A stretch of DNA of 64,000 nt from the human T2T-CHM13v2.0 reference genome, Homo sapiens: NCBI RefSeq assembly GCF_009914755.1, contig NC_060931.1. One strand, given 5' to 3'. Below are positions 1-23,350 of this stretch, piece by piece. A model generated the notes under the pieces. The model had not been told where the DNA came from and did no database searches. It was given only the letters and a program-made list of their open reading frames with translations. Made by a program: the position numbers and the translations under genes. Each line of letters begins with the position of its first letter. Position 1 is the first letter of the stretch.

Positions 1-298
1 TAAGCCTAGTTGGGCATGATATTTATTGAAGAAATATATGAATGGATAGATGGCTAGATACATGGAATGAATGGTATGAATAACGAATCTCATTTTAACT
101 AATTCTGTTTTAACATTGTTTTAAATCTGTTTTAACATTGTTTCCTCAGGAATGGAGTTTGGAATTCAGGTGGCTTTTTCTCAGATTACTTGAAGTTTGA
201 GCAGTCCATGATTTATAATAGGCATATAACAAGTTCCCCGGGTGTTTAACATCATTAAATGTTCTTCTCTATCTGATAGATCCTTTTGCTAATATTAA

Positions 299-323
299 AC
301 ACACACACACACACACACACACA
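299..323. repeat. (CA)n microsatellite
   Basis: About 12 uninterrupted AC units. Confidence 0.95.
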
Positions 324-445
324 AATTAGGAAAAATGTGAAAACAGAAGAATTGTTTTAGTGTCATTGTTATCAAACTCTCAAGTAGGACACATTTTTAA
401 AAATAAAATAGAATTTGGTAAAACTAAGTCTATAACAGTCACAAC

Positions 446-533
446 CATTGTGTAATTTTACCTTCATTCTACTACATTGTATAATTTTACCTTCATTCTA
501 CTACATTGTGTAATTTTACTTTCATTCTACTAC
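446..533. repeat. 29-bp tandem repeat, 3 copies
   Basis: Unit cattgtgtaattttaccttcattctacta repeated three times with single substitutions. Confidence 0.95.
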
Positions 534-3500
534 CTGAAGCAAATAATTTCAATTCCTAATCCAAGTAGTTAGAAGTTAATGATATCTTTTTGCTCCCTAT
601 AAAACCTGGCAGCTCTATCTAAGATGGCGTGTCACAGAAAAATTTCGCCATTTAATCCTTAAAACAAAGTATCCCTTTGCTTCCCCTTATTGTAGAGGAG
701 AGTGATGTTGACATAAAGATCAAACTATTTGCCCTCAAATGCCATTATGAGTGTATAACAGAGAGGGGAAAATGTGCAATTTAGATTAGATTATTGGGCT
801 TCTAGCAGCCTCTCCCTGTGCCAATTATGGGCGACTTTCCATTTACATATAAATAGCTCGGAAATTCCAACACCAATGTACTTGAAAACACTGAATCAAG
901 TAGTTCAGAAAAACATAAATTAGATGCATTTCAATTTAAGGTGTTTACAACAAGCACTCATTCAAGTAAATAAAAGAAATGGAATCAATTTTTATTACAG
1001 AAAGCAACATCTTTTTAAATTATTGAAATTATCCCCACACTGCTCTTAAACCCATCAAGATTTCTTTTGGCATGCTGTTAGTTTCTTTTGCAGGGGAAGA
1101 AAGGATTAAGTAGTTGTATACAGTTGTAGTGTAATGTGGGGGTAGATAATGCTGGTTTTTTATTTCCTCTTTTTTTCTGTGTAAGTCAGAGATGCCTCTT
1201 GAGCTACCTGGGGCCTTACAAAAGACGTAAATAAAACCAGATACACTTTTTCAACATAACTTGCTTTTATCTCTCTGGATAATCCAGTTTAAGTTTTCTG
1301 TCCTTGTCACATTCTCTCCCACTGAAAGACATCTTAGAATGAGTGTAACTTCATTAGCAGTCTCTAACTGCTAACTCACCACAGATTAACCACTCTGTTT
1401 ATTGATCTATTGCTTATAAAGAGCCACTTCAACGCCCACTGCAGTTTCTCAAATGGATTTGATACATGGTATAAACAAACAACTCAGTATGGTAGAGAAC
1501 AAACAATATTGTATATCACTGGTAAGGGCTGAGTTCTCATTTGCTGAATTCTCTTGAGGGTCTAGACAGATACAAGAGAAACGAAGGCTGATGTTGTGTT
1601 GCTTATGTATTGTAATAATATTAGTGATGTTATATATTTTACAAAATACATCACAATTATTTGTTCTTTGAATATCTAAAAATATTTAGTTCACTGAATT
1701 TCACAGATAAAATAGCACAATCTAAAATGACTAGAATGACTCAATAATGATGTGGTTGCGGGAAGGAGGCAGAGAGAAAAAGAAACACTAATTTTATGTG
1801 AATGAAACTGCAGACCATTTTCTGTCACTGGGACGGCTAAAGTCATTTAGTGGGAACTTCCTGGTTTCTTCTCGGAGGGGATTCTGGAGGTACACAGGGT
1901 AGAAATGCTCTTGGTCTACAGACACAGTGAAGAGCTTGCAAAAATGACTACTATGCAAGTTTCATTTTCGACTGATAAATGGTAGAGATTATTGAGTATC
2001 TACTATGTACAGGGAAGTCTAATACTGTTTCTCTATGTGTTACACAATATTCAGGCACATATCTTGATATATCTAAATGAAGAACAAAGAAATCTCAACT
2101 TTACATTTCATGGGGCAGAAGACTCAGAATAGGACGAAATCTAAATTCACAGACTAAAGCGGTATTATTGTTTATAATCACAAAAGCTTGACAACTTAGA
2201 AAGACAGACTAGGAGAAATGATTCCTGAAAAATGAAAGGCAAAAGCAAATGAAACATTTAATAAGGAAATTTAAATTCATGGGTTAAAAATAAGTCATAT
2301 ATTTTACCTTAAAACTCATTTTAAGATAAATTTTCTTGAAGTGTATAGTTTCAAGGTTCATATGGTTAAAAGTTTAAGAAGTTCAAAAACAAATGGAAGA
2401 AATAAATTTAAACGAAAGAATAATAGTATAACAATTGTTAATCAACCTTCCTACACAAATTAAACAATTTAAATGAGATTTTTTCAACGTTAGCCAAAGC
2501 TTGGTAAAGTAGACTTACATTGACAAGTCTAATAACCATTAACTTGGTAAGTCTGTCATATTTTATGAGATTAAGCACACTCATACTGAGCACAGGGTCA
2601 GTGATAAACAGCAAATACTGTATATTGTTTGGCATGAAACTTTTCCCTTGGACTCTCCCACATTCTCTCTCTTCCACTCTTCAGTCTACATATTATACAA
2701 ATTAGATCTTGCAATCAGCATAGGGAAATCTCATTACTGCTGAATATACTTAATAATCATCTTCTTTCTAAACAAAGATAACAGCAAACAGCTCTGAGGA
2801 AATGTTTATGCAAAGAAAAAGCTATGTAGTTTATTTCTAATGAAGATGGTATGACTGTCTGCATAACAGGTTATTAAATACACCATCAAAAGGAGATTCT
2901 CTAAAAAAATAAACTATGTTGAATTTCAAGATGGGCCTCATTATTTAAGAAGTCATTTCCCTAACAGTTTCTAGATGATGCTAACATACCAAACTTTTAG
3001 TTAGTATTCCATGGTTTTCCTTGCATTCTTTCTTTTCTCTTAATATCACACTATGTTGCTAAAGAAAAGGTTATGTATTTTAAAAGAATAAATGACATAC
3101 ATCTGCATATAAAATGATTGGATTTGACATAAGGAAGAAATCTTATGAGCAAGACTGTGAAAACTAAGCTGCAAAATAAGATTTTCTTCAAATGTCACTG
3201 GACTCTGAACCTCCCTTTTAAGAAAATCAGAAATACATCTAATGGATTAGAATATATAGTGCATCAATTAAAATTATACTTACATAAAATATCTATTAGC
3301 CTTCTAAAAGAATACTGCTTTAAAAATATTGCAGAAACTATCCAGACATGACTAATGGGAACAAATATGATTCTTCTAAGTAGTTATAAATCAGCTGTCA
3401 TGATAAAATAGTCACTTATTGCTTGAGTTCTCAATAGATTTAAAAGTCATGGACATTGATCCAATTTCCATAAACCACTGCATAACCTAGGTACAACACA

Positions 3501-5065
3501 GAGTTTAACAGCTTTCATGGGACATAGTTCAAGGATGGTCAAACAGAGAATTACATCAGGGAAGGATCTGGTTTCAGCTCACTGGGAGCAACAGAGATGA
3601 GAGCCGGCAATATCTTCACACTTTTCAAAGTGCTCTTGTGGGTGGTTGGGCCCTCTAGGGAAGTACTCTCTCCATATTGGAGGTGAAAAAATGGAAACAT
3701 AAAAAGGTCAAGTGACATATTTAGATCAAACTATTAGTAAGCCACTGAAGAGATACAGGTAGCTATTTCTTTGCATCAGGTGGCTCTGACCAGAGAGGAA
3801 TCAACTTTCAAAGATTTGTTTTAACCTAAGATCCAAAGGTTTTCACTGAAGTCATCCAGACTACCTAAATTACCCTATCAATGTCTACAGTCCATTAGTG
3901 ATGGTCAAATGTCTTCTGGCTTTTTTGTCATGAATCTAAAAATAGTAAGCCTACCAAGTTAGAAGAAAATGAAATGACTGTTATAGTTAGAAAACAAGGT
4001 ATTTGGGTATTTCAATGTATTGCTCATCATTTTCCATACCAGCTATAATTTCAGCCACTTCAATCCAGCAACACATTTCTGAAACTACTGAAGGAGTCAA
4101 CCTCATCTTACTGATTTTTAAGAAAATTATTGCTAGTCAAACGGAAGAACAGCTTTAAAAACACTGACAGCATAAGTGGCTTCTGGCAGGATTCCAGATC
4201 ATGCTTCTTGGGCAATGTGAAAAGGGAACAAAAAGGCAGTCACTTAAATGAGACAGTGAGAGAATCACAAATCACAGAATCCCAAAACCCAGTGGTCACA
4301 ACTGTTCCTTCTCCCAAGTTCCTGATTCTTTCCAGAAAGCCAGACTGTAGCTCATTCCAGCTCATTACCACAAAAGGAATATTGGATTCTGCCCCAGGAG
4401 AGACTCAATCTCAAGAGCCAAATCACAATGACAAAGATGTGCAGAGTTCAGGATTGAACCTATTGCATCTAATCACTAGCAGAAAATCAGACCACTGAGG
4501 CAATTGTTTTAAATATTAGTCACTTCCTACACTTCCTCCATCATCTAAAATTTTTTTAAAATGTGAAAAAAAAGCCTATAATATGTGCTAAAAACTGATG
4601 CTACTTAAAAAAAAACTGTTTTCCTTTCATTGAACAAACTCTTCTTTCCTTATTTCCCCATTTAATGTGAAAACATATGATCTCATAATGAATGCCAACA
4701 GATGATATACTTAGTTTTATTATTATGAAGTATTTTTTATTCCTTTCTCTTCCTTCACATGGGATCTGTACAGTTAAAAGATCTACACAACAAACATGAG
4801 GAAGTCAGAGAAGATGCCAATTTGACTGTGATTAAAGATTTAGCTATGTAGTCCCTAAAGAAATTGCACTGAGTTGCTATCCCCAAGACTCCAGAGGTTC
4901 CTTTGTAGTAGAGGTGAGCTATGAAGTTCTCAACTATGAAAGGTTAATACAAATGTATTCACTTTATTTATATTAGTAAAACAGGATTAACTACATAGTT
5001 ACCCACTGTATTTACTATACTTTAGAGCAAAAATGCATACAGTAGGAACAATAAATAAAAGCAAA

Positions 5066-5155
5066 AGTATATATATGTGTATATGTGTGTACATACATAT
5101 GTGTGTATATGTGTCTGTGTATATATGTATGTGTGTATATACATATGTGTGTGTA

Positions 5156-5195
<40 letters not shown>

Positions 5196-5208
5196 AAATA
5201 TATATACA
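5066..5208. repeat. Compound (TA)/(TG) microsatellite
   Basis: Alternating TA/TG/CA tract; explains the HT/YI/VC-rich spurious ORFs. Confidence 0.95.
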
Positions 5209-5209
5209 C

Positions 5210-6527
<1,318 letters not shown>

Positions 6528-6825
6528 GGACCATTAGTACTGGCAAAAGAATGGAAAAGCAGATCAATAGAATAGAATGGAGAGCCTAGAATTATGTGTA
6601 GACCTACATAAATATGATAAACTGATCCTTGACAAATGACTTCATTAAAACTAAAAACTTCTGCTCTATGAAAAGCACTGTTAAGAAAATGAAAAACCAA
6701 GCCACAGCCTGGGAGAAAATATTTTCAAAGCACACATCTGATAAATGACTTATATCCAAAATATAAAAAGAGCTGTTAAAATTTAACAATAAGGAAACAA
6801 TCCAGTTAAAAAATGGGCAAAACAG

Positions 6826-7450
<625 letters not shown>

Positions 7451-10164
7451 GAATGGGCAAAAGATATGGATGCCCTATCTAAAATGAATACATATGACAA
7501 GTATATGAAATGTTCAATATCATATGTCATTTGATAATTGCTAATTAAAACAATTAGATACTATTACACATTCAACCGTGACTAAAACCCAAAACACTGA
7601 CTACAGCAAATGCTGACAAAGATGTGGAACAATAGGAACTCTCACTCATTGCTGGTGGGAATGCAAAGTGGCACAGCCACTTTGAAAGAGGGTTTGGCAG
7701 TTTCTAACAAAACTAAATAGACTCTCATCATATGATCCATCAATTGTGCTCCTTGTTATTTATTCAAATAAGTTAAAAATTTATGTCCATACAACAGCCC
7801 TCACAGGACTGTTTATAGCAGCTTTATTCATAATTGCCAAAACTTGTAAACAACTAAGATATCCTTCAATAGTAAACAAACTGTGATACATCCATACAAC
7901 AGAATATTACTCAGCAATAAAAAGAAGTAAGCTATTAAGTCATGAAAAATCATCGAAGAACCATTAATGTATATTGCTTAGTGAAATATGGCAATCTGAG
8001 GAAGCTACATACTATGTAATTCCAACTATATGACATTCTGATATTTATGCATGAGACATGAAAACATATCAATACAAAAACTTGTAGTTAATATTCATAG
8101 CAGTGTTATTTACAATAGCCCCAAACTATAAATAACCCAAAGGCCCATCAACAGATTAACAGATAAATAAATAGTGGTAATATCCATATTATGGAACATT
8201 GCTCAGCTATAAAATAAAATAGATCACTGAGAATAAACTATAGTGACATAAAGCACATCAGTAGTTGCCAGGTGGTAGGTGTGATGGGAGAAGAATAACT
8301 GCAAAAAGGAAGAGAAGGAGTATGGGAAGTGACGTGAATGCTTTTTATGTTGAATTTTTTATAATATATTGAAATGTACACATAAAATTAATGAATTTCA
8401 CTGTAGGTAAATTATATTTCAATAATGATGATTAAAAATAAAGTAGTTACAAAATGAGGAGGGGGAATGCAGCAATCACGTATTCAATTCTTCCTTGACA
8501 CAAGGTTGTATAAAGGAGTTGAAGTACAAAGATGAATTAAGATAAAATTCTTACCCTGCAGTGAATTTACAGTCTAGTAAAAAAAGACAGACATGTACAC
8601 AATCAGTGTAATATAACTATGGTAAGTATAATAATGGAGTTATAAACAGAATTTTATAGGCATAGGGGAAAGGCATTAATTATACAAGATTCAGAGAAAC
8701 CTTGCAAAGAATTACGAATGAGTTGCGTCTTAAGAGGTGATTAGAATTTCAGCAAGTGATGTTTCCTAACCAATCATAAGGTATATTTCATAGTTATTTT
8801 CCTCTATATTTATCTATTCATCCATTGATCTATCCTTCCCTCCACCTATCTATCCACCCATCTAGGCCTAGGGAAAGGAAGGGCTGTAGAGAAAATTCTA
8901 TATTGCGGTATATAGCAATATCTAGGGATTAAGTTTGTACCATAAGAATTTGTTATTTTGTATTTTATGTCGAATAATTTCTGCACAGCAGTTAGAATAA
9001 ATTTATGCTGTATAGAACTGCATATTTACTTTACCTTAGCAGCAAAAACTTAAATGTGATCCTCTCAGAAACTTATCTACTTCAAAGGGTAGCCTAGAGC
9101 TAAAACAGGCTAATGACCATAACAGCACCAGACACTCGTTCCAGCACCTACAACAATACTTAATACTTAGTAAGAGCTGAGTAAACATTGTTGAATAAAA
9201 CCAAAACAGACAGATTGTTAATTCAACTTTATTAAACTTCACAGAGGAAAACTCCACATATAACCAAACTGTACTTCCATTACAGACCCTGTATGGTTAC
9301 AGTTTTTTAAATCATTTTCTCAATCGAGTCAATAATAGGATGTTAAAAGAAAACAGAATATTAAAGAATCCAATACTGCTTTGAGACAGGATCAAATAAA
9401 GCCCTGCTTCAAAACTGTAACTGCTTCTCCAAGCTTACAAAAGTGGGTAGTTTTATTTAGACTTACTATTACTACTTCATTCTGCATTTTCTACAAAACT
9501 TTGACCAATAACACTGGTAAATGGCCAACGTGTAAAGACAATGACAGAAATAAAAAGGTATCATCTATTAACCCTGTTTACACCTTTCCACAAAAACTGA
9601 TGTTTGGGTAACTGAAGTAGAAAAGCAAAATAACATTTTCTAAAGCAAGCAAGAAATAGAAGATAACTCTAAACACAAATATGGACAACATAACCTAGTA
9701 GTTAAGTACAGATGCTTTCAGAGATGAGGTTACTTGGTTGGAATGAGACCTTAAACCAAAGAATACTGCAATAAATAGTGATTGCTTCTACATATGTGAT
9801 CAACTACAAGTGAAAAGGGTCAAACACACAGGTGATTGTGCAGCCATAATTTTTGCAACATTGTATACATGCTGACATATACCAACGCTAGCAATAATAT
9901 CTTTGAGAATTATGGACACAAGCTATGGCTAGATACTTTCAAATTATTGACAATTTCCTCCTGTCAATAAGAAGAAAGTTCCAGAAATGTTGCACATCAC
10001 GTTAGATAACAATAAGAAATTACTAGATTATTTATTTTTAAAAAATTATCATTGGAGGAGTCCTTCTTAACTATCTATATTCTTCAACAAAGTAACTCCT
10101 TTCCTAAATGGAATCATCTGATATGGACTGGCCTGGTCATTCCATCTATACACTGTATAACATT

Positions 10165-10340
10165 CCACATTTGAACTTGGGCAAGTTACCTCCCTGTGCC
10201 TCAGTTTCCTCATCTGTAAAATGGGAATGACAACAGTACTTACCTCACAAAGTTATTGTGAGGATTAGATGAGCTAATGAATGCAATGTGCTTAAAACAG
10301 AGCCTAGCACATAGGAAGTTCTATAACTTTTAGTCATTAT
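10165..10340 (+). mobile_element. MIR
   Basis: Core ttgggcaagttacc...gcctcagtttcctcatctgtaaaatggg. Confidence 0.9.
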
Positions 10341-10569
10341 TATTACTATTTTTTATTATTATTGCTCATATTATTCCTTCTTTGCTACCAAACTACATCA
10401 ATAAATATGGCATTTTAGAACTAGTAAAAACTTAGAACTAACATAAGAAACACAAATCTCTAGATCTAGTTCACTGCTTCTTATAATACCGTTTCCTTTA
10501 AGTGCAAGATTTACCTTTCCTCCGAAACCTTCCTCTATAAACTGGGCCCCTTAATGACAAGAGACGCAC

Positions 10570-10722
10570 TGTGAATAAAATTCTGGTCCCAGCTCTATCT
10601 AGGCCTCCCAGAAAGCCCCAGGTAAGTCATCTCCCCTTTGGGGCCTCAGCTTTCTCATTCTTAAAATAAAAGTGTTCGCATTTGAGGATTATTAAGGTCC
10701 CTTTGAGTCCTAATATTCTGAT
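10570..10722 (+). mobile_element. MIR/MIR3 fragment
   Basis: gggcctcagctttctcattcttaaaat ... aaggtccctttgagtcctaatattctg. Confidence 0.65.
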
Positions 10723-12411
10723 TCAATAAATCCTTCAGGTTCTTTAATGTATTAATATGACATTATAAATTTGGCTTTTTGACACTTTAGAATTTATCTC
10801 TAGACACTTAACTAGATTATAAGCATCAGGATCCTCTAGGGCAGGATCTTTGTTCTCTTTCATTCAGAAGTTAGATAGTTTAGCCAAAAAAAAGTCTCAA
10901 AACTAAAGTATTAATAAAGCCATCAGTGCTTCTAGAAGCAAACTGGAATTTTATTGATGTTACACATCTCTTTTTAAAATACTATTACTTGATTAAAAAG
11001 CTGTTGAATTCTATCATATATTCTTGTAAAAGTGTATTTTTACAAACCAGATAACTTTATAGTTTCTGAGTTTTGGATAGGTAAATAAGTGGCTTAACAT
11101 GTTCAAAACTGGGGTCACTTATTTTTCTAATGAATCCATTAAGATTATACATTTATTCATGATATCATAAGAAATCACCATGTGGGTTTTGCAATTAAAA
11201 AGAAATATTTTTGTTTATTAATGTTTTCAAGTGATATAATGTTTTGCAACAGAAAAAATAAGCATATGAATGAAATGTCAAGGACCAATAATGAGCAGTC
11301 AGAACTGCTGAGCAGATCCCTCCCTCTTAGCTAGTAACACTGCTGTATAGGATCACTCAGGCTGAAAATGAAATTTTTTACGAGGAAAAATTTAACATTT
11401 TGTCATCATTACACTGTTGTGCTATAACTGATTTTCTTCAACAAGGTGGCAGGTGCTTCAATACTTAAAATGCTAAGATTCTTAAACCAAACTAACATAT
11501 ACATAGTATGGAACATTAATCTTAAGATTTATATTTTCAAATTTGTAGAGGTCTAAAGGTTTTCAAGGCAGCTGTAAACATATACAATTTCTCAAGTGGA
11601 GGTTTCCAAAGACTGGGAATGCAACTGATAAGATATAAAATCAGAGGAGAAACAGTGGAAAAGTAAACATAATATAAGAGAATCACAACATGTAATGCAG
11701 TCATTAATTTCATGAGTCTCCTTGGATAGGTTTAAAGCACACTTCAGATGCATTAGTAGGATATCATTTTATATTTCAGAAGGAGTACTCTCAAGCCAAG
11801 CTTCTTTGTAGTAAATGAATCATCCAGCTATATTTTGTGAAAAGGGGTCATTTTAATTTCAGGGTCTTTTATTGCCCAGCAAGGTAACTGTGAAATGACA
11901 TTCACAATATAAATAAATTCAGTTGTCTTTGCTTCAAAGAAGGTAGTTATTATTCAAGCATTTACTTTCTAGCTTATCTTACATACTGAGATTTGCATAA
12001 TAGATATTGGCCTTGTTAACACTGAACATAAAGCAAACTTTACTAGAACAATTTACAGTAATTAATTATGTACAATTGCTTCTAATAAAAGGCATAATGA
12101 AAAGGGAGAAACTATGTGCAGAAAATAGCAAAAGTAAGATGAAGAGATGGTAAAGTTCACATATCTGTTTGTAGATGACAGTTTTAAATGTACTGTATTT
12201 TGTTAAGAGGTAAAAAAGTTGCGGGGATATCTTAAAGTTCTCATCCTATCTGTGTCTAAATAATCTATCCATCACAGAAAAACTCTGTCCCATAGGCCAG
12301 TGTGTGATTGATAGATACTATTATAGTGAAATATTGACCGCACCATAACTAGCAAATGTTACAATGAAGAACCTTAATTTGAAGTTAAAATATTTTCTCA
12401 TAATCAATAGT

Positions 12412-12503
12412 AGGTACAGCAGCATATCCTAACTTAAGAGGAGAGCCTGTGGCCACCTAAAAGTACTGACAGAATTTAAAAGGCAAAGAAAGAGAGTAAG
12501 AAT
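12412..12503 (+). repeat. 92-bp local duplication, copy 1 (probable donor)
   Basis: Matches 14885-14976 at 88 of 92 positions. Confidence 0.95.
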
Positions 12504-14168
12504 ACACTGATTTTTATTTTTATAAAATCTAAATGCAATTATTCACAATTTGGGGGTGGTAAAAATGAAAGGAAAAGCAATACGTTGGTGGCTAGTTAAT
12601 TGGAAGCACAGTGGAAAAGGAGTAAGCCCACAGCACTGCCTACTTAGTTACTGTTGAGGATCCTGTCCTCATCAATGATTAGTAATACATGAAAGAGGAG
12701 AGGAAGTAGTAAAAGTTGTCCTCTTTTCAAACCTGCTAAAGCCAACTAGGTTCAAAGACCCTGAACTAGGTTAGCAAACTCACTAAAATCAACTATGATC
12801 CTGAACGGTATGCACTGAGCGGTCACAATAACCTAGGCACCAGCATCTAACTAAAATGTAAAGAGGTGAAGAGGAGTTCTGGTTTGTTCAGTAAAACAGA
12901 CCCTTGGGCATAAAACTATACAACTTCTAGCACTCAGTGGAAATATAATGAATAGAAAAGGGAGTACATTGTTTCATATGTTAAATAATCTATGGAGAAG
13001 AGTACCATTTTCAATATTTTTCAAGCCAATTTTTTATCTGACATGAGTTGAAATGAAGCATAGTTAAAAATTAAAGGGGATAATCTTTATAAATCAAGTT
13101 ATTAGTAGAAAACAGATTTTAAAATCCAGGGAATTGAATATTGGAAATTCTCTCAAAGTACAAGTAATCAAACTTGGGGACGATAACTCATTAATCAAAA
13201 TCAAGGTTTCTACTTGTGGCCTAATATAAATAAGGTGATAGAAATATATTTCTAAGCCTTGGAATTCAGGGAATTTTTTTTCTCTTACATCTCAGACTTC
13301 AAACTTTGGGGAACAGGGGTCATTTCTTTTTGTACATAACTTCTATTTCAAACTTTGATAAGCACAATGTATAGAATAGAATGGTCTGCTTTGGAGGCAT
13401 AAAGATAGCCTGATCTCATATCTTTCATCATTTTTCACATATGAGTTCACTGCATCTGTTCCGACCATCAATTCAAAACATGTATTTTGATTTTAATTTT
13501 GGAAAACATAAAATCTCAAATTTAAAAGCTTAAGTTTCAGAATGTATTTATTAAAACTCAGTTATTCAAATGACAACTGGTGTAAAAAACATAGTGTGGT
13601 CTATTTAGGGAGTCAAAAACATGTTCAAAACATCTAGTTTATTTTTAATAAAAACAGAATATATGTTTCTAAACATAAGCAAATCTCTATTAACCGTTAA
13701 ACTAACATAAATATTACACTTATGACACTTTAAGGAAGATATGCTCAGATGCCATGTTTGGTAAAGCTTATGAGTAGGTAGATACCACCTGGAAAATAAA
13801 AAACTAAATTTGGCATCAAGTATAGATAGCGCAATTCAAAAAAATTCTCATTAATTCAGGTCAGTGAGCTCTCCCCCCTTTGTATTCCCTGCTTGCATGT
13901 CAGTCCATGTAATAAAGTATTAACATGGTAGTGGTTTTTTTAAAAACCATCACAACAAAAACCGTCCAGTTTTACTGCATTAATCAAAAGTTCACAAAAA
14001 TATGAAACTCAAGAAGTAATTCCAGCATCTCTATTCCTCCCTTAATCGTGTGCAAATTTTACCTAAGAAATATCTTCTCATCTTCCTATGCCTTTAATTG
14101 GCTACCACTGCATTGCAGCAGCACATTAGCCCAACTCCATACATGCAGACCCAACTATAAAAGGGTCT

Positions 14169-14463
14169 GGACTGGGCAGGGTGGTTCACACCTGTAATCC
14201 CAGCACTTTGGGAGGCCGAGGCGGGTGGATCACCTGAGGTCAGGAGTTCAAGGCCAGCCCGGCCAACACAGTGAAACCCGTCTCTACTAAAAATACAAAA
14301 ATTAGCTGGGCGTGGTGGCACATGCCTGTAATCCCAGCTACTCAGGACGCTGAAGCAGGAGAATCACTTGAAGCCGGGAGGCAGACAGAGGATGCAGTGA
14401 GCGGAGATTGCGCCACTGCACTGCAGCCTGGGTGACAAGAGCAAAACTCTGTCTCAAAAAAAA
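14169..14463 (+). mobile_element. Alu (S type) with TSD aaaagggtct
   Basis: Full dimer; TSD at 14159-14168 and 14460-14469. Confidence 0.97.
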
Positions 14464-14832
14464 GGGTCTGGTCACTACACTACATAATTATTTCCGTGAT
14501 TAAAAAATTAAACCAAAGTTTCCAAAAATTATTTATTTGAAAAGAATTTTAGGTTGCTATTAAATAACTAAATTCTTTAAATAGATATGGAGTTGCCAAA
14601 ATGACCAATAATATTTTACAGGTGGACAAATGTTAGGTCACCTAGACTGATAGCAGTAGTGATATTGAAAACTTTATTCAAACAACTTGAATTTTTATTC
14701 TTACTGAAGCAAATACCCAGTTTAGGGGATGTTCTACCCTGAGTTTAATAAAATGTATTCTGCCAAACAATTACAGCAAAGGGAGTGTTTAATCAAATTT
14801 ATCTAACATTTGATTGTATATCCTGAAAATCT

Positions 14833-15104
14833 TTTAATCTAAAAGATATTTATATCTAATATTTAAATATTAGATATAAATATCAGGTACAGCAGCATAT
14901 CCTAACTTAAGAGGAAAGCCTGTGGCCACCTGAAAGTACTGACAGAATTAGAAAGGCAAAGAAAGAGAGTAAGAATTTGATTTAAATATATAAATCTAAT
15001 ATTTAATATTATATAATTATATAAAATCTTATAAACCTTATAAAACCTTATAAAACTATATAAAATCTAATATTAAATCTAATATTTAATCTAAAAGATA
15101 TTTA
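14833..15104. other. Complex insertion: 20-bp direct repeats around a 40-bp palindrome, a 92-bp templated copy and AT-rich filler
   Basis: tttaatctaaaagatattta at 14833-14852 and 15085-15104; perfect palindrome 14845-14884; 14885-14976 is a copy of 12412-12503. Confidence 0.9.
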
Positions 15105-15699
15105 AAACTGATGCATAACAAAAGATGTATAAGATTTTAACTTGGGCAATAAAGCATGGTATGATAAATCAAGTTTTAGTTACATCACTTATAAATTTAT
15201 AAACATTTATGTTTATAAATTAATACTGATGCTATTACTTGGCTCAAATATTGTACTGAGGAAAAATATTCAACTTTAGCTTGCATTCACTTACAAACAT
15301 ACAATATCAACATACAATTCTAGCTGTTCTGAGTTATCATTCCCAGCTAGTATTTTGGTATGATAATCTTCTAGAAGATAATCCTGCTTAGGGATTAGTG
15401 GCTAATTCTTATGACCATGTACCACCTAAGGAAATTTAAATTATTGTTTTCCTGGGGCTCACAAATTTTTGAAATTTTTTCATTAAAAAATATGTAAGTG
15501 CCTACAAGGTAAAATAATATGAAACTAAACTTAGCTGAGGTGTGGTCTAAAGAATAAGTTTACAGAAAAAAAGGCCTTGAAATCAACTAAATTTGTTTCA
15601 CAAAATGAGTAAAAATATGTGTAAATAAAAAGTCTAAGCATGTACTTCTGTCTTCTTAAAATGTGTCTTTGTGGCAGCTCATTCTATCTTCTTTATTAT

Positions 15700-16085
15700 A
15701 AATATCCAATTCTAGAAAAAGGCAGCAATGATCTCTTAACTGCCAGATGAGTGGCTTTTCTAGTTTGCATTCTTTTAACCACTCAGGGGCACATGTAAAG
15801 TTAAACTCTTTTTGATATTCTGTCTTTCCTTGGCTTACGAGATAGCGTTTTCCTGAATCTGTTCACTCTCGGTCTACATTTCTGATGTGTGTTTGTCACC
15901 AGTCACTTAAGTGTTACTAGATCCCGGGGCCCTATCCTTGAGAATCTCCTTTCCTTTTCTATTTGTACTCTTCTACTCTGATGGCTTAAAATTACTAGGT
16001 GCACATGATTCTGATTTGTTTTCAGCCCAGGGCTTTCCTTTGAATTTCTGACTCACACTTCCTACTAGGGCATAGACATCAGGTG
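15700..16085 (+). mobile_element. L2 fragment
   Basis: Degenerate pyrimidine-rich L2 ORF2-like sequence (cagcaatgatctcttaactgccaga; cagcccagggctttcctttgaatttctgactc). Confidence 0.6.
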
Positions 16086-16109
16086 TCCCGCATATAGTAC
16101 ATAGGGATA

Positions 16110-16350
16110 TGAGGCAATCTAGTGTAGTTAGTGTCAAGAGCATAGGCTCTGAAGATAGAATGCCTCAGTTTGAATGCTAAGTCTACCAGTTGTGTGAACT
16201 TAAGTTGTTTAACCCTTCTGTAGCTCAGTTTCCTTATCTGTGAAATGGAGGTAAAAATAACAATCTATATTATAGGGCTTTTATAAGGGTGAAATGAACT
16301 TTGAATGGAGACTGGCATATAATAAGTATTACATAGTGTGTGTTAAATGA
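16110..16350 (+). mobile_element. MIR
   Basis: aagagcataggctctg ... ctcagtttccttatctgtgaaatggagg. Confidence 0.85.
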
Positions 16351-16468
16351 AATAAGTAACACTATAATTTATGATTCTTAAAATATTCCTTATAATCCCC
16401 CTTATGCACATATTTGTAAAGTTGCATGTCCTGAGTTTTAATATGGCCATCATAGATACCATTTAAAG

Positions 16469-22595: not shown

Positions 22596-23350
22596 TTACT
22601 AGTTTTGGTTAATAAGTTCACTTTCTTTCTACCAGATCTTGCTCTTGTTAACTGGACTCTGCAAGCAGTGAGCATCTGGGCCTGCTTGGCTCGGTTACAA
22701 TCCTTCTGGAACTGATTCAAATACCACCTTTGTAAAGTCTTTGCTGACCACCACCATCAGTCACCATAGTTGCTTCTATTCTGTTTTCCCACTGAGGTAC
22801 ATATTGTACCTTAATCATAGTACTTAACATACTAACACTGGTTATTGTTAGATGCTATTTTGGGGGAAGGAGGCCTGTAATACCACCATAGTCAATAAAT
22901 ATTTGTTGAATAAGTCAACAAGCAAAATAACATTTTAAAATATATACTATAATGCTAGGTACATCGTCAAGAGGTTGTGATTATTAACGTGAACTCTGAG
23001 GAATATTATATTTGTGTTTCATAAAGACTATAAAAAGACAACTTGGTCACAGCAGGATATTAGGAAGAAGTGACCATAAATAAATTCATTTAAATAACTT
23101 ACATTTCCTGAGCATCTATCTTCTGCAAAGATAGATGCTCATGTACTGCAGGGACACCAAGCTGGTCGCTGTCCTCAGAAGAGATTCTGACATATCCAAA
23201 TGCTACGTACATTAGTTTGAAATTTAAGAAAAAGTGTGCATTAAGTGGACCCAGAGTTGTTACACTGCCATGCTCTATTAGTAGAGACCAACTTAAATAT
23301 ATACCATTTTATCTGATAGCCAAATACCTCCAGGCATCTTTTAAAATTAA

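What the first reader, a model, noticed from the sequence alone, without database searches (positions are those of the whole stretch)
14833..15104. Template-switching repair scar: direct repeat, 40-bp palindrome, 92-bp copy from 2.47 kb away and stuttered filler
Seen: tttaatctaaaagatattta (14833-14852) recurs at 15085-15104. Between the two copies are a perfect palindrome gatatttatatctaatattt|aaatattagatataaatatc (14845-14884), a same-orientation copy of 12412-12503 (4 mismatches in 92), and about 110 bp of AT-rich filler built from re-copied local words (atctaatatt, taaaacctta). Knowledge: fold-back synthesis, templated insertion from nearby DNA and iterative microhomology priming are signatures of Pol theta-mediated end joining and MMBIR/FoSTeS. 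Inference: one germline repair event added about 250 bp. The roughly 4% divergence between copies suggests it predates the human lineage.
Basis: partly seen in the sequence, partly recalled or inferred. Interest (0 to 1): 0.72.

Follow-up and report, generated by a model that had tools for sequence, protein, structure and literature searches.

The report
Old patchwork DNA-repair scar in intron
A 252-base patch in a human intron is made of a short duplication, a fold-back palindrome and a copy of DNA from 2.5 kb away, most likely the scar of an error-prone repair event in an ancestor's germ line; such scars are a known kind, two related copies lie nearby, and no function is evident.

Summary
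The exact 20-mer repeat (14833-14852 / 15085-15104), the perfect 40-bp palindrome and the 92-bp copy of 12412-12503 (4 mismatches) are all at the stated places and beyond shuffles. The genome search finds the 92-mer at 2 places only, so it is not a repeat family. Only the 14885 copy has a flanking duplication, so it is the derived one. The 20-mer starts and ends with TTTA: a 16-bp duplication with 4-nt microhomology. A 12-nt word new to the insert recurs on both sides of the 92-mer and nowhere else in the window, which favours one event. Best reading: a complex germline templated insertion (microhomology-primed template switching; Pol theta-type ends, MMBIR-type long jump; the two cannot be separated here). 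L1 retrotransposition tests fail (no poly-A, no signal). The claimed age is not established: the interval is 1.2-11% and error at birth could explain part of it; no ape genome was available. It is ordinary: two more spaced local copies lie in 200 kb of neighbouring DNA, one inside an L1 whose paralogues show the empty site.

The parts
12412..12503 (+). Donor of the 92-bp copy; unique intronic DNA with no flanking repeat
   Evidence: 2 places in the genome; 11800-13200 otherwise unique; longest word shared by its two flanks 6-8 nt
12521..12532 (+). Possible second template just past the donor end (12-nt match to filler 15059-15070); may be chance, as the same bases can be built from earlier filler
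   Evidence: 3 of 633 100-bp windows reach 12 nt, this one included; alternative self-copy parse
14791..14799 (-). Left-flank 9-mer whose reverse complement matches 14974-14982, giving 3 nt of microhomology with the donor end: likely return from donor to break site
   Evidence: short and A+T-rich, weak alone
14829..14847 (+). 8-bp stem, 3-nt loop hairpin at the break site, in sequence that would pre-date the insertion
   Evidence: fold of 14822-14857: -4.3 kcal/mol, z -2.88, 1 of 200 shuffles as good
14833..14852 (+). First copy of the 20-mer; begins and ends with TTTA, i.e. 16-bp duplication unit plus 4-nt microhomology
   Evidence: sequence
14845..14884 (.). Perfect 40-bp palindrome, no spacer. 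14853-14857 is the reverse complement of 14844-14848 (snap-back over a 4-nt loop); 14859-14867 repeats the break-site 9-mer; 14868-14884 is a 17-nt inverted copy of the strand just made
   Evidence: fold of 14822-14884 z -5.85, 0 of 200
14885..14976 (+). 92-bp same-orientation copy of 12412-12503, 4 mismatches; 0 nt exact microhomology at its left junction (6 of the 9 preceding bases match), 3 nt at the right
14977..15084 (+). 108-nt, 91% A+T filler: 21-nt 90% copy of the palindrome arm (14986-15006), 12-nt inverted copy of the right flank (15022-15033), 10-bp-period stutter, two more copies of the new word
   Evidence: (I8, I17)
15085..15104 (+). Second copy of the 20-mer; its first 4 bases are also the last 4 of the final filler word (resolving microhomology)
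   Evidence: word at 15077-15088
15128..15139 (-). Right-flank template of filler 15022-15033 (12 of 12; 16 of 18 to 15122), 24-35 bases from the repeat end
   Evidence: 2 of 634 control 100-bp windows and 0 of 84 A+T-matched reach 12 nt

Best explanation
The 252-bp stretch is a patchwork of a 16-bp duplication, a fold-back palindrome, a 92-bp copy from 2.47 kb upstream and short re-copied local words, and is most likely the scar of one germline break repaired by repeated microhomology-primed template switching. Inferred order: a 3' end at 14852 snapped back on itself, slipped to the break-site 9-mer, copied its own new strand in reverse (in a hairpin or on the sister, since the palindrome has no loop), jumped to 12412 for 92 bases, returned through 3 nt of microhomology, cycled over its own product and the right flank, and finally annealed at the upstream TTTA, which re-copied 16 bases. 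The short cycles look like Pol theta-mediated / synthesis-dependent end joining, the long jump like MMBIR/FoSTeS or use of a resected tract; sequence alone cannot choose between them. It most likely has no function.
For: Shown: all pieces present and beyond shuffles; donor unique; polarity markers only at 14885 (20-nt flanking repeat, GC 0.10 / 0.41 / 0.09 across left flank, copy, filler, against 6-8 nt and 0.20 / 0.40 / 0.31 at 12412); the 12-nt word at 14854, 14994, 15077 and (reverse) 14864 occurs nowhere else in 64 kb; filler shares more words with the break flanks than most control windows (7-mers, +/-100: 3 of 2522 windows, 0 of 230 A+T-matched reach the observed distinct count; 8-mer coverage 6 of 2522, 4 of 230); pre-existing hairpin at the site. 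Internal positive control: a 160-bp local copy with a 10-bp-arm fold-back at its junction interrupts an L1 about 106 kb away whose paralogues are contiguous across it. Literature: complex multi-template germline events were 33 of 103 and 26 of 99 curated calls in two people (PMC8421209); fold-back, cross-junction and rare palindrome templates at fragile-site junctions, the last possibly bimolecular (PMC11541566); TMEJ tandem duplications carry microhomology and occasionally in-cis templated inserts (PMC5730883); IMMP2L is a large fragile-site gene.
Against: No outgroup allele seen: the empty site is inferred, and the flanks have no paralogue that could stand in. No exact microhomology at the jump into the donor. 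The locality test of the filler is uneven: with 6-mers and 9-mers it is not significant against A+T-matched windows (coverage 81 of 230 and 48 of 230 at +/-100; 53 and 29 of 342 at +/-50), and the control windows overlap. Parses of 91% A+T sequence into 5-12-nt words are not unique (searches give different ones). The CC in the stutter has no local template of length above 4-7 nt, and the array may have grown later by slippage. A 92-nt tract from 2.47 kb is outside the usual Pol theta range.
Confidence: 0.78

Rival explanations
1. Stepwise build-up: two or more separate events at a structure-prone A+T-rich site (for example a duplication with palindrome first, the 92-bp copy later, the 10-bp stutter expanded last by replication slippage).
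For: Palindrome arms and 20-mers are perfect (0 of 40 pairs) while the 92-mer differs at 4 of 92; the stutter is a tandem array; a perfect palindrome is itself a fragile spot (recalled knowledge).
Against: 0 of 40 has P=0.17 at 4.3%, so the difference is not significant; the same new word lies on both sides of the 92-mer; everything sits inside one duplication.
Confidence: 0.1
2. Staggered break made by two L1-endonuclease-type nicks on opposite strands 16 bp apart, leaving 5' overhangs; fill-in gave the duplication and end joining captured the filler, with no retrotransposition.
For: A TTTT/AA site on the top strand at 14832-14837 and one on the bottom strand at 15102-15107 (equivalent to position 14851/14852 of the empty site) bracket exactly 14836-14851 (EN consensus as quoted in PMC5110952). 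Fill-in of 5' protrusions gives a duplication of the sequence between the nicks (PMC5730883).
Against: Noticed after the fact; 18 of 594 TTTA...TTTA pairs with 6-20 bases between them, and 1 of 46 at this spacing, have both contexts in 264 kb. The TTTA microhomology explains the duplication without any nuclease.
Confidence: 0.05
3. L1-mediated (TPRT) or RNA-templated insertion of a piece of IMMP2L-region RNA, the 20-mer being a target-site duplication and the filler a decayed tail (class 1 or class 2 TSIP).
For: Duplication length is in the TSD range (recalled); the donor is in a transcribed intron; intronic donors and RNA templates are described for TSIPs.
Against: No poly-A or poly-T at either end (longest A run in the filler is 4), no AATAAA on either strand of the 92-mer; nick geometry is the reverse of TPRT (inference); the filler and palindrome derive from target DNA; the donor is 2.47 kb away whereas experimental TSIs came from distant regions. 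An RNA template for the 92-mer alone cannot be excluded.
Confidence: 0.04
4. Reverse polarity, an ancient duplication, or an assembly artefact.
For: No outgroup or read data examined.
Against: No junction marks at 12412; 4 differences between the copies argue against a mis-assembly that repeats a read; 96% identity argues against a pan-mammalian age (inference).
Confidence: 0.03

Closest known systems
Complex MMB-TI germline variants (Osia et al. 2021, PMC8421209)
   Same: Insertion copied in turn from several local templates in both orientations, junctions with microhomology or microhomeology; found as germline variants.
   Different: Theirs are differences from the reference seen in reads; this one is in the reference and probably older. 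One template is 2.47 kb away.
Pol theta templated insertions / SD-MMEJ snap-back and loop-out (PMC12426944, PMC11541566, PMC5728401)
   Same: Fold-back over a 4-nt loop, cross-junction and inverted templates near the break, patchwork with unassignable bases, final 4-nt microhomology.
   Different: Typical inserts are under 25 bp with templates within about 20-30 bp of the break; here 236 new bases besides the duplication, including a 92-bp tract from 2.47 kb.
Meiotic-break template-switch insertions closed by TMEJ (Hinch et al. 2023, PMC7615360)
   Same: Germline insertions mixing duplication and other templates, size range near the roughly 2-kb resection tract, inferred error rate 1.2%.
   Different: No hotspot data for this site were examined; donor distance is slightly over 2 kb.
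Short-range template switches in great apes (Walker et al. 2021, PMC7954356)
   Same: Create perfect inverted repeats; 4017 events, median tract 12, maximum 128. The palindrome piece is of this kind.
   Different: Their model is a single switch and return; this has several switches and a direct-orientation distant tract.
Templated sequence insertion polymorphisms, class 1 and 2 (PMC5110952)
   Same: A copied patch at a break with the donor intact; size within the 73-414 bp seen experimentally.
   Different: Class 1 needs poly-A and a signal (absent); class 2 lacks a flanking duplication and comes from distant loci; polymorphism here untested.

Membership tests
Complex templated insertion (MMB-TI / FoSTeS type) | Inserted bases copied from two or more identifiable templates, donor left intact | tested here: met
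   92-bp donor, 17-nt self-inverted copy, 12-nt inverted right flank
Complex templated insertion (MMB-TI / FoSTeS type) | Microhomology or microhomeology at the switches | tested here: inconclusive
   4 nt at the final join, 3 nt at donor exit, 0 exact (6 of 9) at donor entry; short matches are common at this A+T content
Complex templated insertion (MMB-TI / FoSTeS type) | Ancestral allele lacks the insert | not testable with these tools
   No primate relatives held; flanks have no paralogue
Pol theta-mediated end joining / SD-MMEJ | Templates within about 20-30 bp of the break, snap-back or cross-junction | tested here: met
   For the small pieces only: 14844-14848, break-site 9-mer, 15128-15139
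Pol theta-mediated end joining / SD-MMEJ | Short tracts (generally under 25 bp) from the immediate flank | tested here: not met
   92 bp from 2473 bases away
Pol theta-mediated end joining / SD-MMEJ | Genetic dependence on POLQ | not testable with these tools
   Historical event
Class 1 TSIP / L1 TPRT product | Duplication of target sequence of at least 5 bp at both junctions | tested here: met
   20-nt repeat
Class 1 TSIP / L1 TPRT product | Poly-A of 10-40 residues and an AATAAA signal upstream | tested here: not met
   Neither on either strand (definition)
Class 1 TSIP / L1 TPRT product | TTTT/A nick placed at the tail end of the insert | tested here: not met
   Consensus sites exist but bracket the duplication in 5'-overhang geometry (geometry is inference)
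Dispersed repeat / transposon | Many copies in the genome | tested here: not met
   2 matches for the 92-mer at E up to 10; the tool warns that counts are lower bounds. Other hits of the 341-bp query are 69-83% matches to the A+T filler (one inspected is a TA-rich simple repeat)
Known structured RNA (Rfam) | Match to a covariance model | tested here: not met
   5 matches at E up to 1 in 12000-16000, none in the insert or donor (4 in the Alu, 1 at 13928-13974)

The most novel reading that the evidence does not exclude
The break was cut by L1 endonuclease twice, on opposite strands 16 bp apart, and was patched by host template-switching repair with no retrotransposon DNA at all: a fossil of an aborted L1 attack, recognisable by paired TTTT/AA sites at the exact edges of the duplication. 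If general, a share of duplication-flanked templated insertions in primate genomes would trace to L1 endonuclease.
Probability: 0.06. Interest if true: 0.55.

Novelty: new member of a known kind. Interest (0 to 1): 0.2.

Why it matters
It is a clean teaching example in which snap-back, self-templated inversion, a kilobase-range template jump and iterative priming sit in one junction, which suggests that Pol theta-like and MMBIR-like steps can occur in one germline repair event. It lies deep in an IMMP2L intron with no annotated exon or element, so a biological effect is unlikely. The more useful lesson is methodological: such scars can be read from the reference alone and are not rare here (2 further spaced two-copy local duplicates in 200 kb scanned blind).

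Tried and rejected
Dispersed repeat: rejected. Paralogues of the flanks as a stand-in for the empty site: none for 14475-14845 (1 match, itself); for 15090-16400 only a repeat at about 16130-16300 and a self-palindrome. Whole-genome background count: not possible; 264 kb were used, as 21 separate stretches, so pairs across boundaries are missed. Rfam: nothing in the insert. Sigma-70 promoter/terminator scan: irrelevant to human DNA and at chance level (2 found, shuffle mean 3.5). Filler as a stable hairpin with the right flank: not supported (15000-15145 z -1.62, 12 of 200). Filler hits elsewhere in the genome: low-complexity matches. Dating from mismatches: too few to decide. Print: no paper on this site surfaced in searches naming IMMP2L or the mechanism; supplement searches of PMC7954356 (6 files) and PMC8421209 (1 file) for the gene name and for coordinate prefixes found nothing, but those prefixes were my recalled approximations of GRCh38/hg19 positions, so this is a weak negative. 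PMC10962320 is not held. Earlier scan findings were not available.

Full report
Observation. Every element reported is present. The 20-mers at 14833-14852 and 15085-15104 are identical and not extendable, 14845-14884 is a perfect palindrome, and 14885-14976 matches 12412-12503 at 88 of 92 positions. In 300 dinucleotide shuffles of 14800-15140 neither a 20-bp arm nor a 20-nt repeat was reached (maxima 14 and 17). The palindrome is the longest in the window; among the 11 rows with arms of 14 or more in 264 kb, the others with arms of 20 or more are TA-type simple repeats. Of 22 exact direct repeats of 20 nt or more at 60-600 spacing in 264 kb, the rest are microsatellites, TA-rich arrays, Alu-like pairs (family recalled) or members of tandem duplications.

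Copy number and direction. The 92-mer has 2 matches in the T2T genome and the donor's 1.4-kb neighbourhood matches only itself and the copy; the tool notes that such counts are lower bounds. The 12412 copy has no flanking repeat over 6-8 nt and sits in ordinary composition; the 14885 copy is a 41% GC island between 10% and 9% GC patches inside the 20-nt repeat. So 14885 is the derived copy (inference). No primate genome is held and the flanks have no paralogues, so the empty allele was not seen.

Anatomy. The 20-mer begins and ends with TTTA, so it is a 16-bp duplication with 4 nt of microhomology; the last filler word (15077-15088) overlaps the second copy by those 4 bases. The site carries an 8-bp hairpin that would pre-date the event (z -2.88, 1 of 200). 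The first new bases, 14853-14857, are the reverse complement of 14844-14848 across a 4-nt loop. 14859-14867 repeats the 9-mer that spans the break; 14868-14884 is a 17-nt inverted copy of what had just been made. Entry to the donor has no exact microhomology (6 of 9 preceding bases match); exit has 3 nt shared with an inverted left-flank 9-mer. The filler holds a 21-nt, 90% copy of the palindrome arm and a 16-of-18 inverted copy of the right flank, a 10-bp-period array and two more copies of a 12-nt word that occurs only inside the insert. Because that word does not exist in the flanks, its presence on both sides of the 92-mer is the main reason to prefer one event. Enrichment of filler words in the break flanks is real but uneven: strong for distinct 7-mers (3 of 2522 windows, 0 of 230 A+T-matched) and the longest match (2 of 634, 0 of 84 at +/-50; 5 of 631, 2 of 60 at +/-100), weak for 6- and 9-mer coverage (81 and 48 of 230); control windows overlap. 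A 12-nt match to the donor's 3' flank (3 of 633 windows, itself included) may be a second visit to the donor or a by-product of self-copying.

Mechanism. Shown: the templates and junction matches. Inferred: order of steps, single event, enzyme. The short cycles match snap-back and loop-out synthesis (PMC5728401, passages) and fold-back, cross-junction and palindrome templates at POLQ-dependent fragile-site junctions, which peak within 20 bp of the break (PMC11541566, passages). Pol theta inserts are generally under 25 bp and can be patchworks (PMC12426944, passages). The 92-bp tract from 2.47 kb is better matched by complex MMB-TI events, 33 of 103 and 26 of 99 curated germline calls in two people, where even the 3' base need not match (PMC8421209, abstract, part 1 of 2 of section 10 and section 15), or by meiotic break repair with about 2 kb of resection followed by TMEJ (PMC7615360, passages and section 9). 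Duplications with microhomology and in-cis inserts are a described TMEJ outcome (PMC5730883, passages). IMMP2L is named among large fragile-site genes (PMC4315293, one passage; PMC9164283, two passages). I put the class at about 0.8 and leave the enzyme open.

Age. 4 of 92 is 4.3% (95% CI 1.2-11.1%); counting the adjacent pair once, 3.3% (0.7-9.5%); adding the 40 perfect pairs, 3.0% (0.8-7.8%). Against a human-chimpanzee-scale 1.2% (recalled figure) P of 4 or more is 0.026-0.077; against 0.1% it is 1e-5 or less. But with the 1.2% synthesis error inferred in PMC7615360 a young event gives P=0.026 (4) to 0.10 (3), and error plus 1.2% gives 0.18-0.38. An origin before the human lineage is likely but not shown.

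Rivals. L1 TPRT fails on poly-A, signal and nick position (PMC5110952, parts 1-2 of 4). Two EN-consensus sites on opposite strands do bracket the duplication exactly, which would give 5' overhangs whose fill-in duplicates those 16 bases; background is 18 of 594 comparable pairs and the test is post hoc, so this stays a 5-6% reading. Stepwise build-up is possible, above all for the stutter.

How ordinary. A blind scan of 264 kb (window plus 20 stretches of 10 kb upstream) found 6 local pairs of 40 bp or more at 85% or more with no third copy in the set: 3 tandem and 3 spaced, the finding being one of the spaced. One is a 185-bp, 100% identical inverted copy of unique DNA. The other is a 160-bp, 91% direct copy that interrupts an L1: genomic paralogues match query 1-128 and 295-421 a few bases apart, and the right junction holds a 10-bp-arm fold-back of target sequence. 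That is the same recipe with a visible empty site, although it may have formed during the L1 insertion itself. Short template switches number 4017 among great apes (PMC7954356, abstract and part 1 of 2 of section 8). No paper on this site surfaced (the coordinate terms were approximate), and structural-variant catalogues outside the library were not seen.

Verdict. Real, well explained in kind, probably neutral: a new member of a known kind; interest 0.2.

Noticed in passing
L024 816-1000 and 1488-1672 (G000:C7:112214816-112215000 / 112215488-112215672): 185-bp perfect (100%) inverted copy of unique DNA, 487 bases apart, with an Alu-like repeat in the spacer; only these two places match in the genome search. 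Looks like a recent inverted templated insertion or a pair kept identical by conversion; a candidate for a polymorphic micro-inversion.
   Followed up: partly
L027 7988-8146 and 8766-8925 (G000:C7:112251988-112252146 / 112252766-112252925): 160-bp, 91% direct copy of unique DNA inserted into an L1 fragment that begins about 50 bases past the donor, with a 10-bp-arm, 4-nt-loop fold-back at 8920-8943; paralogous L1s are contiguous across the site. Copy-donor divergence (9%) is as large as that between this L1 and its paralogues, so it may date from the L1 insertion or have been copied with errors.
   Followed up: yes
window 14885-14976 and 12412-12503, minus strand: On the IMMP2L sense strand both copies read as a pyrimidine tract followed by AG dinucleotides; the differences in the copy give a CTAAT branch-like word and change TAG to CAG before GTGG (consensus recalled, not scored). 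Whether either is used as a splice acceptor is untested.
   Followed up: no
window 15190-15225: Near-perfect inverted repeat (17-nt arms, 94%, 13-nt perfect core) 85 bases right of the scar; may be another small template switch.
   Followed up: no
window 14159-14472: Full-length Alu-type element between donor and scar, flanked by a 12-nt direct repeat at about 14160-14171 and 14461-14472; if it is younger than the scar the original jump was about 2.16 kb.
   Followed up: no
window 23109-23141: Perfect inverted repeat, 14-bp arms, 5-nt spacer, non-simple sequence.
   Followed up: no
L020 6481-6695 and 8533-8681; L022 7360-7614: Three old tandem duplications of 75-129 bp at 86-89% identity in 200 kb.
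   Followed up: no
window about 16130-16300: Dispersed repeat fragment not in the hub's list of longest masked stretches; 37 matches of 30-120 bp elsewhere in the genome; MIR-like by recall.
   Followed up: no
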